Virus genome (UHGV): UHGV-0335973
Source: a virus
Reading direction: 5' to 3' (one strand)
DNA length: 38,029 nt
Shown: in pieces, positions 29,142 through 29,930 of the stretch
Position numbering within the stretch: the first letter of the stretch is position 1
How the letters are laid out: each line of letters starts with the position of its first letter
Program-made: the position numbers and the translations under genes
Notes under the pieces: generated by a model
Databases searched by the model: none
Told to the model about the DNA's origin: nothing
What the model saw: the letters and a program-made list of their open reading frames with translations, nothing else

Positions 29142-29286
29142 ATGTAGGGTTGACCTACCTCTTTTAGAAAGTGCTCAAGGAAAGGCACTAGCCACTACGT
29201 TGGAGTGGTATCAGGACCAGTACACAGAGTGTGCTGCTAATCACAATGGATTGTTAGAAGCTCTGAAAGAGCGTGGAATAGAATAA
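29026..29286 (+). CDS. putative o-spanin (Rz1-like lipoprotein) overlapping i-spanin in another frame
   Basis: signal peptide [14 protein letters not shown] with lipobox-like SAC, Pro-containing mature region; overlapped-gene architecture. Confidence 0.5.
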
Positions 29287-29930
29287 TGGCGAAGAAGACA
29301 ACACCTACAAGATATCGCATTCATGGAATCCCTATTAAGTACATCTCAAATTATGAAGAGTTTTATAAAGTGAACTGGAAAGTGGTTCACAAGTTCTTCA
29401 TGTATGATATCAGGGATTACCATGAAGCAGAAGATGTGGCACAGGAAGTGCTCTTGAATGCTTGGAGATTTGTCTTCGCTAAGCAGGATGAGAGAGTCCT
29501 AGAGGATGAGAAAGACCAAGAGCATATGACCTATCGAGTCAAGAACATTATCTGGTCTATACGCTCAAATAGGCAGACTGTAGGGGACCGTCGTATCTAC
29601 TCTATTCCAGAGGCTGATATGTTCCGTACTCCTGATATGGTGGACAGTCCTTTAGAGATTGCTATGGATAAGCAAGATTCTGTTGGTGACCCATTCATGG
29701 AGTCTCGTATCTTCTATTTCTTCCAAGATTTAAGTGATACGATGGATACTCAGAAGTTAGCTAATATGTTCTCAATGATTTTCTTGGGCATTCCCCATGA
29801 CCACATTCAGAAAACTATTGGCATGTCACATGGAACTTTCTACCGTCGTTATGCAGAGTTAAAAGATCTGGATGAATACGTGGTAGAGAAGCACTTCGAT
29901 AAAGAAGAGTTTCAAGGGTTGATTACATGA
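29286..29930 (+). CDS. ECF-like sigma-70 family sigma factor (putative)
   Basis: [15 protein letters not shown] resembles region 2.2; C-terminal [18 protein letters not shown] resembles region 4 HTH. Confidence 0.5.

What the first reader, a model, noticed from the sequence alone, without database searches (positions are those of the whole stretch)
29286..29930. Candidate phage-encoded ECF-like sigma factor in a genome lacking a phage RNA polymerase
[15 protein letters not shown] and the C-terminal [18 protein letters not shown] resemble sigma-70 regions 2.2 and 4. No T7-type RNAP gene is present among otherwise T7-like replication genes, so middle/late transcription may depend on host RNAP redirected by this protein.
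Basis: partly seen in the sequence, partly recalled or inferred. Interest (0 to 1): 0.6.

Follow-up and report, generated by a model that had tools for sequence, protein, structure and literature searches.

The report
Known phiEco32 gp36 phage sigma factor

Summary
The ORF at 29286-29930 (+) is real and encodes 214 aa. It is 213/214 identical to phiEco32 gp36, which is chain F of cryo-EM structure 9M7Y (E. coli RNAP-gp36-gp79-promoter open complex, Xu et al. 2025). All 24 gp36 residues that paper names as contacting RNAP, promoter DNA or gp79 are conserved. Of 37 nucleotide differences from phiEco32, 36 are synonymous.

The window is collinear with phiEco32 26.4-63.1 kb. It also carries the partner regulator gp79 (100% identical, 9753-10001). 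The published gp36 promoter element tAATGTAtA sits upstream of the gp68, gp58 and gp40 homologues.

Curated sigma-70 models match only below threshold. A family profile reaches bona fide ECF sigmas, and the predicted fold hits ECF sigmas at ranks 2-25. No phage RNAP gene is in the window, and the literature says phiEco32-like phages lack one.

Verdict: observation confirmed, interpretation supported, already known.

Side observations:
- A unique Y196D substitution at an otherwise aromatic position.
- A conserved P68-like promoter on the opposite strand (27846-27877) that is not among the six published gp36 promoters.
- Two rare homing-endonuclease insertions that split the DNA polymerase and primase/helicase genes.

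The parts
29286..29930 (+). Sigma factor gene, orthologue of phiEco32 gene 36 (214 aa plus stop). The start codon overlaps the stop of the upstream spanin-like ORF (ATAATGG). The stop overlaps the start of the downstream SLOG/'GTP-binding domain' ORF 29927..30319.
   Evidence: 213/214 identity to phiEco32 gp36 / PDB 9M7Y_F; PHROG 1740 'RNA polymerase sigma factor' E 9e-44
29286..29594 (+). N-terminal domain (residues 1-103), sigma-2-like. It binds the beta' clamp helices through D44, E47, E49, D50 and E54. It recognises and melts the -10-like AATGTA element through E79, H80, Y83, R84, W90, S91, S94 and N95.
   Evidence: Domain limits and residue roles from PMC12276001; all residues conserved; helices at 23-42, 45-64 and 75-99 with pLDDT about 80; sub-threshold Sigma70_r2 hit on residues 31-62
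29595..29696 (+). Linker (residues 104-137). It is disordered in the isolated model. In the cryo-EM structure it threads through the active-centre cleft like sigma region 3.2.
   Evidence: pLDDT below 50 for residues 99-134; PMC12276001
29697..29927 (+). C-terminal domain (residues 138-214), sigma-4-like. It binds the beta flap-tip helix (M138, I142, F166, L167, F204) and gp79 helix 1 (F146, M164, L167, I169), and reads the -35 region (Y186, R187).
   Evidence: PMC12276001; residues conserved; Y196D
9753..10001 (+). Homologue of phiEco32 gp79 (82 aa). Published function: a small RNAP-binding protein that displaces sigma-70 region 4 and stabilises the gp36 open complex.
   Evidence: 81/81 identical to phiEco32 gp79 over the compared range; all named contact residues present; function from PMC12276001
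16493..16524 (+). P68-type gp36-dependent middle promoter, TGGTAGTAGATA-N11-aAATGTATA, with G at -37 and A at -34. It lies 42 nt upstream of the gp68 homologue (16564..16893).
   Evidence: nearly identical to phiEco32 P68, the promoter in structure 9M7Y
20642..20650 (+). P58-type gp36-dependent middle promoter element TAATGTATA, upstream of the gp58 homologue (20687..21004).
   Evidence: promoter list in PMC8948821 Table S3
27918..27926 (+). P40-type gp36-dependent middle promoter element TAATGTATA, upstream of the gp40 homologue (27986..28732).
   Evidence: promoter list in PMC8948821 Table S3
27846..27877 (-). Candidate additional gp36-type promoter on the opposite strand, TGGTAGTAGATA-N11-TAATGTATA. 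It has the same -35 element, spacing and -10 element as P68 and lies back to back with P40. It is not in the published list of six.
   Evidence: inferred, not shown to be active

Best explanation
The gene encodes the orthologue of phiEco32 gp36, a highly diverged two-domain (sigma-2-like plus sigma-4-like, ECF-like) sigma factor of a Kuravirus-type E. coli podophage. The mechanism below was shown for the 99.5% identical phiEco32 protein and is inferred here by near-identity. Early genes are read by the host sigma-70 holoenzyme. gp36 then binds host core RNAP, with its N-terminal domain on the beta' clamp helices, its linker through the active-site cleft and its C-terminal domain on the beta flap-tip helix. 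The N-terminal domain recognises and melts the single strongly conserved promoter element tAATGTAtA, centred near -11.5. The C-terminal domain contacts the -35 region. The small protein gp79, also encoded in this window, inserts its N-terminus into the RNA exit channel. This displaces sigma-70 region 4 and shuts off host and early transcription. The same gp79 helix docks on the gp36 C-terminal domain and stabilises the gp36 open complex. Middle and late phage genes are therefore transcribed by a re-programmed host polymerase, and the phage needs no RNAP of its own.
For: - Identity: 213/214 to PDB 9M7Y chain F and to phiEco32 phi32_36.
- All 20 gp36 residues named for clamp, -10, flap-tip and -35 contacts are conserved, as are the 4 gp79-contact residues.
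- 36 of 37 nucleotide differences from phiEco32 are synonymous.
- The window is collinear with phiEco32 26.4-63.1 kb at 94-97% identity.
- The gp79 homologue is 100% identical.
- The promoter element is present at the three syntenic sites expected in this window: P68, P58 and P40.
- All four AATGTATA octamers of the window lie in the 6.1% of sequence that is non-coding.
- PHROG 1740 'RNA polymerase sigma factor', E 9e-44.
- The AF2 model has two helical domains and a disordered linker.
- Foldseek against the PDB gives only ECF sigma factors at ranks 2-25, aligned over 180-204 columns.
- Foldseek against BFVD gives the GAP52 ECF sigma at E 8e-4, followed by other phage ECF-type sigmas.
- Profile search of 1.84 billion representatives: the weak tail of hits consists of proteins with Sigma70_r2, Sigma70_r4_2 and Sigma70_ECF above Pfam thresholds.
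- Experimental basis: PMC12276001, PMC8948821, PMC4281155, PMC9965538.
Against: - Nothing was tested on this exact allele. Its one amino-acid difference, Y196D, lies in the C-terminal domain at a position that is Y or F in all 13 other aligned homologues. The exact sequence is absent from a 15-billion-protein collection, so some loss of activity or a sequencing error cannot be excluded.
- Curated sigma-70 models are matched only below their thresholds.
- A profile search of PDB sequences gives only non-significant ECF hits (E 0.04-1.7), confined to residues about 21-65.
- Counted with one mismatch allowed, the 9-mer promoter element is not enriched over shuffles (10 observed, 10.6 expected). 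Its significance rests on position and synteny.
- An intrinsic-terminator-like hairpin (28755-28772 followed by six T) lies between P40/gp40 and the sigma gene, so the promoter that drives the sigma gene in this window is not identified.
Confidence: 0.96

Rival explanations
1. The gene is a gp36 orthologue, but this allele is impaired or the D196 codon is a sequencing or assembly error. An aromatic residue conserved across the whole family has been replaced by aspartate in the sigma-4-like domain.
For: Y196D is the only non-synonymous change among 37 differences. Position 196 is Y in 11 and F in 2 of the other 13 homologues, down to 48% identity. No phage record among 99 is 100% identical, and the exact protein is absent from the 15-billion-sequence collection.
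Against: Residue 196 is not among the residues the structure paper lists as contacting RNAP, DNA or gp79. The ORF is intact and every other sign points to a functional phage. A single T-to-G change is an ordinary polymorphism.
Confidence: 0.15
2. The protein is not a sigma factor but a helix-turn-helix transcription regulator (TrpR/YerC-like) that binds DNA on its own and represses or activates host-sigma-dependent promoters.
For: One source names a homologue 'uncharacterized protein YerC'. Foldseek gives very weak TrpR-like hits at E about 5-9. No Pfam region-4 model matches.
Against: The 99.5% identical protein forms a holoenzyme with core RNAP and occupies the sigma-2 and sigma-4 positions in a 3.4 A cryo-EM structure. 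ECF sigmas fill ranks 2-25 of the fold search. The TrpR-like hits cover only one small domain at non-significant E-values.
Confidence: 0.01
3. The protein is a canonical extracytoplasmic-function sigma factor, acquired from a bacterium, held in check by a cognate anti-sigma factor and recognising an AAC/CGT-type bipartite ECF promoter.
For: Many GenBank records label it 'RNA polymerase ECF sigma factor'. The closest folds are ECF sigmas.
Against: Scores lie below every curated ECF model cut-off. The family is extremely narrow, with 4 representatives at E<=1e-10 among 1.84 billion proteins, and it is confined to phiEco32-like phages. The promoter element is tAATGTAtA, not an ECF-type promoter. 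The partner protein gp79 is a co-activator that inhibits the host sigma, not an anti-sigma for gp36.
Confidence: 0.02

Closest known systems
phiEco32 gp36 (phi32_36, YP_001671781; PDB 9M7Y chain F)
   Same: 213/214 residues, the same length, the same genomic neighbourhood, the same partner gp79 (100% identical) and the same promoter elements at syntenic positions.
   Different: Y196 is D here. The macro-domain gene gp37, which lies immediately upstream of gene 36 in phiEco32, is absent, so the sigma gene abuts the spanin genes.
Sigma factors of the 7-11 / GAP52 subgroup (Salmonella phage 7-11 SaPh711_gp47; Cronobacter phage GAP52 ECF sigma)
   Same: Phage-encoded late sigma factor in a phiEco32-like genome layout that uses host core RNAP. 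There is a structural match to the GAP52 protein (Foldseek E 8e-4, 18% identity).
   Different: According to PMC8948821, gp47 shares only about 15% identity with gp36, recognises a bipartite GTAAtg-N16-aCTA promoter, acts only at late promoters, and those phages lack a gp79 homologue and do not shut off host transcription.
Bacterial group IV (ECF) sigma factors, e.g. M. tuberculosis SigE/SigH/SigL, P. aeruginosa AlgU, E. coli sigma-E
   Same: Two-domain sigma-2 plus sigma-4 architecture joined by a linker that passes through the RNAP cleft. These are the best structural matches after the self-hit, and there is weak but consistent profile similarity in region 2.1/2.2.
   Different: About 11-17% identity. 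Scores lie below the curated family thresholds. From PMC12276001: helix 1 of the N-terminal domain is rotated about 70 degrees, the recognition-side helix of the C-terminal domain is shortened, and the flap-tip helix is bound in a different orientation. The promoter differs and there is no anti-sigma partner.
T4 AsiA/MotA sigma appropriation and T4 gp55 late sigma
   Same: Functional analogy: a phage switches host RNAP from early to middle or late promoters by disabling sigma-70 region 4 and supplying a new specificity determinant. The authors draw this comparison in PMC12276001.
   Different: T4 keeps sigma-70 on the enzyme for middle transcription and remodels it. Here sigma-70 region 4 is displaced by gp79 and a complete replacement sigma is used. 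There is no sequence relationship.

Membership tests
phiEco32 gp36 family (PHROG 1740; Kuravirus-group core sigma factor) | Full-length sequence homology to phiEco32 gp36 | tested here: met
   213/214 identity; PHROG 1740 E 9e-44
phiEco32 gp36 family (PHROG 1740; Kuravirus-group core sigma factor) | Conservation of the residues shown to contact RNAP clamp helices, the -10 element, the flap-tip helix, the -35 region and gp79 | tested here: met
   24 of 24 residues conserved; residue list from PMC12276001
phiEco32 gp36 family (PHROG 1740; Kuravirus-group core sigma factor) | Co-occurrence with a gp79 homologue and with tAATGTAtA promoter elements at syntenic positions | tested here: met
   gp79 100% identical at 9753-10001; P68, P58 and P40 elements at 16516, 20642 and 27918. 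P26, P13 and P6 lie outside the window.
phiEco32 gp36 family (PHROG 1740; Kuravirus-group core sigma factor) | Binds host core RNAP and directs promoter-specific initiation | not testable with these tools
   Shown experimentally only for phiEco32 gp36 (PMC12276001, PMC8948821); inferred here from 99.5% identity
Sigma-70 superfamily, group IV (ECF) | Match to Sigma70_r2 (PF04542) at the curated threshold | tested here: not met
   18 bits against a gathering score of 24, residues 31-62 only
Sigma-70 superfamily, group IV (ECF) | Match to Sigma70_r4 / r4_2 (PF04545 / PF08281) | tested here: not met
   No hit at E<=10. PMC8948821 also states that gp36 shows no sequence homology with region 4.
Sigma-70 superfamily, group IV (ECF) | Match to TIGR02937 sigma70-ECF at the curated threshold | tested here: not met
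   23.2 bits against 42.9. The alignment nevertheless spans residues 23-192 and model positions 3-157 of 165 at E 4.3e-5.
Sigma-70 superfamily, group IV (ECF) | Statistically supported remote homology to recognised ECF sigmas by family profile | tested here: met
   Profile A1 against 1.84 billion representatives gives hits at E 1e-6 to 1e-3. The eight tail hits scanned (P0023-P0027, P0029-P0031) all carry Sigma70_r2 above the Pfam cut-off, and most also carry Sigma70_r4_2 or Sigma70_ECF. The same profile against PDB sequences alone gives only non-significant ECF hits.
Sigma-70 superfamily, group IV (ECF) | Two-domain sigma-2 plus sigma-4 fold without regions 1.1 and 3 | tested here: met
   AF2 model with two helical domains and a disordered linker. 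Foldseek against the PDB gives ECF sigmas at ranks 2-25, with probability up to 0.99 and E 5e-3 to 1. The cryo-EM description is in PMC12276001.
Sigma-70 superfamily, group IV (ECF) | Regulation by a co-encoded anti-sigma factor and an ECF-type (AAC / CGT) promoter | tested here: not met
   The promoter element is tAATGTAtA. Neighbouring genes are spanins and a SLOG-domain protein. gp79 is a co-activator of gp36, not an anti-sigma for it.
Phage single-subunit (T7-type) RNA polymerase | An ORF of about 800 aa or more with an RNA_pol (PF00940) domain in the window | tested here: not met
   The largest + strand ORF is 563 aa and is GATase-like. The only larger ORF is the gp26 homologue, with no Pfam or PDB match and a PHROG of unknown function. 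For the whole genome the literature says there is none.

The most novel reading that the evidence does not exclude
The sigma factor is known, but its regulon may be incomplete. A seventh gp36-type promoter lies on the strand opposite to the middle genes, at window 27877->27846 (-), which corresponds to the phiEco32 + strand near 36.70 kb. It is identical to P68 in its -35 element, spacing and -10 element. It is conserved in its half-sites but not in its spacer across three genera. It could drive a late antisense or non-coding transcript through a near-invariant structured ~100-nt region and into the middle-gene cluster, either to help switch off middle genes or to act in replication priming. 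Separately, the unique Y196D allele might change sigma activity.
Probability: 0.3. Interest if true: 0.4.

Novelty: already known. Interest (0 to 1): 0.08.

Why it matters
It does not change anything for the field. gp36 and gp79 of phiEco32 are a textbook-level example of a phage that re-programmes the host RNA polymerase with its own sigma factor, and the system was solved structurally in 2025. The practical value is correct annotation of this window: sigma factor, gp79 co-regulator and three gp36 promoters. The only possibly new point is the conserved opposite-strand P68-like promoter, which would add antisense or non-coding transcription to a well-studied regulatory circuit.

Tried and rejected
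- Motif enrichment as evidence for promoters: TAATGTATA with up to 1 mismatch gives 10 hits against 10.6 expected, and the exact 9-mer gives 3 hits against 0.9 expected, with 14 of 200 shuffles reaching that count. Enrichment is therefore not significant. I relied instead on synteny with the mapped phiEco32 promoters and on intergenic placement.
- Profile of the family against PDB sequences: only non-significant ECF hits. The question was settled by the larger representative library and by fold search.
- Rfam at gathering thresholds and tRNA scan of the whole window: nothing found. This gives no support for a known RNA family or a group I intron at the intergenic region or at the endonuclease insertions.
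- GC-skew profile to look for an origin near 27.7 kb: skew follows gene orientation only and is uninformative.
- gp26 homologue (1417 aa in the window) as a possible virion RNAP: no Pfam, PDB or annotated PHROG match, so there is no support.
- The two primary J Mol Biol papers (Savalia 2008, PMC2587145; Pavlova 2012, PMC3275717) could not be read. Their content is cited only through later open-access papers. I therefore cannot exclude that the opposite-strand promoter was mentioned there.
- Literature search for antisense transcription or an origin of replication in phiEco32 or Kuravirus: nothing relevant.

Full report
**Observation.** The window has an open reading frame at 29286..29930 on the + strand, with an ATG start, 214 codons and a stop. 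The opposite strand of the same interval is full of stop codons.

**Identity.** A sequence search of all PDB chains returns one significant hit: 9m7y chain F, 'RNA polymerase ECF sigma factor', 214 aa, E 2.6e-144, differing at a single residue. 9M7Y is the cryo-EM structure of the gp79-dependent open promoter complex of E. coli RNA polymerase with phiEco32 gp36, gp79 and promoter P68 (Xu et al., Nucleic Acids Res 2025, PMC12276001). A direct comparison with phi32_36 of NC_010324 gives 213/214 identities. At the DNA level the gene differs from phiEco32 at 37 of 645 positions. Of these, 36 are synonymous, which indicates strong purifying selection on the protein.

**Genomic context.**
- tblastn finds the gene in 99 phage records, all Escherichia or Shigella phiEco32-like podophages of the subfamily Gordonclarkvirinae. 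Many already label it 'RNA polymerase (ECF) sigma factor'.
- The whole window is collinear, in antiparallel orientation, with phiEco32 positions 63066 to 26377 at 94-97% identity. It therefore contains the middle genes and part of the early gene cluster, plus the 3' part of late gene 26.

**Functional anatomy.** The structure paper divides gp36 into three parts:
- an N-terminal domain (residues 1-103) that sits on the beta' clamp helices like sigma region 2;
- a long linker that passes through the active-centre cleft like region 3.2;
- a C-terminal domain (residues 138-214) that binds the beta flap-tip helix like region 4.

The paper names these contact residues:
- D44, E47, E49, D50 and E54 for clamp binding;
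- Y83, R84 and W90 for the upstream fork junction;
- E79, H80, S91, S94 and N95 for base-specific reading of the -10-like element;
- M138, I142, F166, L167 and F204 for the flap-tip helix;
- Y186 and R187 for the -35 region;
- F146, M164, L167 and I169 for the gp79 helix.

All are conserved in the window protein. The second motif ([18 protein letters not shown]) contains the two -35-reading residues.

**The rest of the system is in the window.**
- The ORF at 9753..10001 is 100% identical to phiEco32 gp79. gp79 is the small protein that inhibits sigma-70 and sigma-S holoenzymes by displacing region 4 and that stimulates gp36-dependent transcription 3- to 4-fold.
- gp36-dependent promoters are defined by the element tAATGTAtA, 6-8 bp upstream of the start site. 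They were mapped upstream of phiEco32 genes 6, 13, 26, 40, 58 and 68 (PMC8948821; PMC4331800).
- The window carries this element upstream of the homologues of gene 68 (16516-16524, aAATGTATA), gene 58 (20642-20650) and gene 40 (27918-27926). The flanks are almost identical to the phiEco32 promoters. The other three promoters lie outside the window.
- As a bare motif count the element is not enriched over shuffles. However, all four AATGTATA octamers lie in the 6.1% of the window that is non-coding, and the AATGTA hexamer is depleted overall, 19 observed against 33 expected from mononucleotide shuffles.

**Is it an ECF sigma factor?** In how it works and in its fold, yes. As a member of the curated sequence families, no.
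- Pfam Sigma70_r2 scores 18 bits against a cut-off of 24 and covers residues 31-62 only. No region-4 model matches.
- TIGR02937 (sigma70-ECF) aligns over residues 23-192 but scores 23.2 bits against a cut-off of 42.9.
- The family is very narrow. There are 19 clusters at 90% identity, down to 48% identity, among 5.8 billion sequences. There are four representatives at E<=1e-10 among 1.84 billion.
- A profile of 14 family members (A1) gives only non-significant hits to ECF sigmas in the PDB, all of them on residues about 21-65.
- In the 1.84-billion library the same profile reaches proteins at E 1e-6 to 1e-3. The eight I scanned all carry Sigma70_r2 above the Pfam threshold, and most also carry Sigma70_r4_2 or Sigma70_ECF.
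- An AlphaFold2 model (mean pLDDT 68.6) has two helical domains at about 80 pLDDT and a linker at 99-134 below 50.
- Foldseek against the PDB returns 9m7y_F first and then only ECF sigma factors at ranks 2-25: M. tuberculosis SigE, SigH, SigL and SigK, AlgU, RpoE, SigW and BldN. These align over 180-204 columns at 11-17% identity.
- Foldseek against viral models returns the GAP52 'ECF sigma factor' at E 8e-4, followed by other phage ECF-type sigmas.
- The published structure notes departures from canonical sigma-2 and sigma-4: a rotated first helix, a shorter helix 4 and a re-oriented flap-tip helix.

The best description is a very divergent, phage-specific offshoot of the group IV sigma fold. 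It has its own promoter specificity and a co-activator in place of an anti-sigma factor.

**No phage RNA polymerase.**
- Within the window no ORF could encode a T7-type enzyme. The largest + strand ORF is 563 aa and is glutamine-amidotransferase-like.
- The only larger ORF is the gp26 homologue on the - strand (33763..38016, cut by the window end). It has no Pfam or PDB match and belongs to a PHROG of unknown function.
- The replication genes are of the T7 type: a Toprim plus DnaB_C primase/helicase, a family A DNA polymerase and an exonuclease.
- The window is only half a genome. [quoted passage not shown]
- Some RefSeq product names, such as 'RNA polymerase' on the 42-aa phi32_50, are labels on tiny ORFs and not polymerases.

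**Verdict on the finding.** The subject is an already characterised protein. It was found on RNAP from infected cells (as summarised), studied biochemically and solved on RNAP in 2025. [quoted passage not shown] Novelty: already known. Interest is low.

**Residual uncertainty on this allele.** The single amino-acid difference, Y196D (TAT to GAT at 29871-29873), lies in the C-terminal domain. That position is Y in 11 and F in 2 of the other 13 aligned homologues. None of the 99 phage records is 100% identical, and the exact sequence is absent from the 15-billion-protein collection. Residue 196 is not among the contacts listed in the structure paper. The change may be neutral, mildly deleterious or a sequencing error. 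I could not test which.

**Side observation: a P68-like promoter on the opposite strand.** The 415-bp gap at 27570-27985 contains only a 35-codon ORF matching phi32_41 (27563..27670).
- It holds a second exact copy of the full P68 architecture, TGGTAGTAGATA-N11-TAATGTATA, on the minus strand at 27877->27846. It has the same G at -37 and A at -34 that the structure paper shows are read by R187 and Y186.
- The 32-nt pattern occurs twice in the window and never in 100 shuffles.
- In an alignment of eight phages from three genera (Kuravirus, Suseptimavirus, Nieuwekanaalvirus), both half-sites are invariant. The 11-nt spacer and the flanks vary.
- In IMG/VR, phiEco32, NJ01, ECBP2 and KBNP1711 each carry exactly two copies, on opposite strands.
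- The site lies back to back with P40 and is not in the published table of six promoters per phage.
- Downstream on the minus strand there is no conserved ORF. There is a near-invariant ~100-nt segment with a long hairpin.
- On the + strand that hairpin is followed by TTTTTAT, so it probably terminates transcripts coming from upstream.
- I could not read the 2012 primary paper. The site may therefore have been examined before, and its activity is unproven.

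Noticed in passing
window 27846-27877 (- strand), within the non-coding gap 27671-27985: A second exact copy of the bipartite P68 promoter architecture (TGGTAGTAGATA-N11-TAATGTATA, G at -37 and A at -34) lies on the strand opposite to all neighbouring genes, back to back with P40. The half-sites are invariant and the spacer is variable in 8 phages of 3 genera. phiEco32, NJ01, ECBP2 and KBNP1711 each have exactly two copies on opposite strands. It is not among the six published gp36 promoters.
   Followed up: partly
window 27684-27800: A near-invariant ~100-nt intergenic segment across three genera, more conserved than the flanking genes. It contains a long hairpin (27684-27751) followed on the + strand by TTTTTAT, a likely terminator after the gp41 homologue, and then a GCAGG...CCTGC hairpin. 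The minus-strand RNA folds better (z -2.24) than the plus-strand RNA (z -1.2). There is no Rfam match.
   Followed up: partly
window 29871-29873 (codon 196 of the sigma gene): Y196D is the only non-synonymous change among 37 differences from phiEco32. The position is Y or F in all 13 other homologues aligned. The exact protein is absent from a 15-billion-sequence collection.
   Followed up: partly
window 23559-24264: A 706-bp insertion carries an Endonuclease VII-domain ORF (23674..24180). It splits the family A DNA polymerase gene into a 450-aa ORF (22208..23560) and a 173-aa ORF (24237..24758). Among about 100 phiEco32-like records only Bas93 and Bas94 share it, and the insert sequence also matches Yersinia and other phages. 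No group I intron was found by Rfam.
   Followed up: partly
window 11826-12608: A 783-bp insertion carries an HNH_3 endonuclease ORF (11919..12419). It splits the primase/helicase gene into a Toprim part (10892..11830) and a DnaB_C part (12552..13466). Only XT73 and XT18 among the relatives share it, and the insert also matches Klebsiella and other phages.
   Followed up: partly
window 29283-29290 (junction): The macro-domain (Appr-1-p processing) gene gp37, which precedes the sigma gene in phiEco32, is absent. The sigma start codon therefore overlaps the stop of the spanin-like ORF 28927..29286.
   Followed up: no
window 28755-28780: A strong intrinsic-terminator-like hairpin (AGCCACCTCCGGGTGGCT followed by TTTTTT) lies between the gp40 homologue and the spanin and sigma genes. 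Transcription of the sigma gene from P40 would need read-through or another promoter. A sigma-70-like site (ATGAGA-17-TATAAT) lies at 29026-29054.
   Followed up: no
window 16493-16524, 20619-20650, 27895-27926: Upstream regions differ between gp36 promoters. P58 and P40 share TAGCA at -38..-34. P68 and the minus-strand site share TGGTAG. The phiEco32 late promoters P13 and P26 share TAAGACCTA further upstream. This may reflect promoter classes.
   Followed up: no
window 30310-30846: The region matching phiEco32 gp34 (dNMP kinase, 297 aa) is replaced by a shorter 178-aa ORF of a different dNMP-kinase PHROG (26149). blastn shows no match to phiEco32 over 30324-30846.
   Followed up: no
window 24828-24956: This is a 42-codon ORF homologous to phi32_50, which RefSeq labels 'RNA polymerase'. 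It is far too small to be one, and the label appears to be an annotation artefact.
   Followed up: partly
whole window: The hexamer AATGTA, the core of the gp36 promoter, is under-represented: 19 observed against 33 expected, and 199 of 200 mononucleotide shuffles have at least as many. This could reflect selection against spurious gp36 promoters, but dinucleotide and codon effects were not controlled.
   Followed up: no
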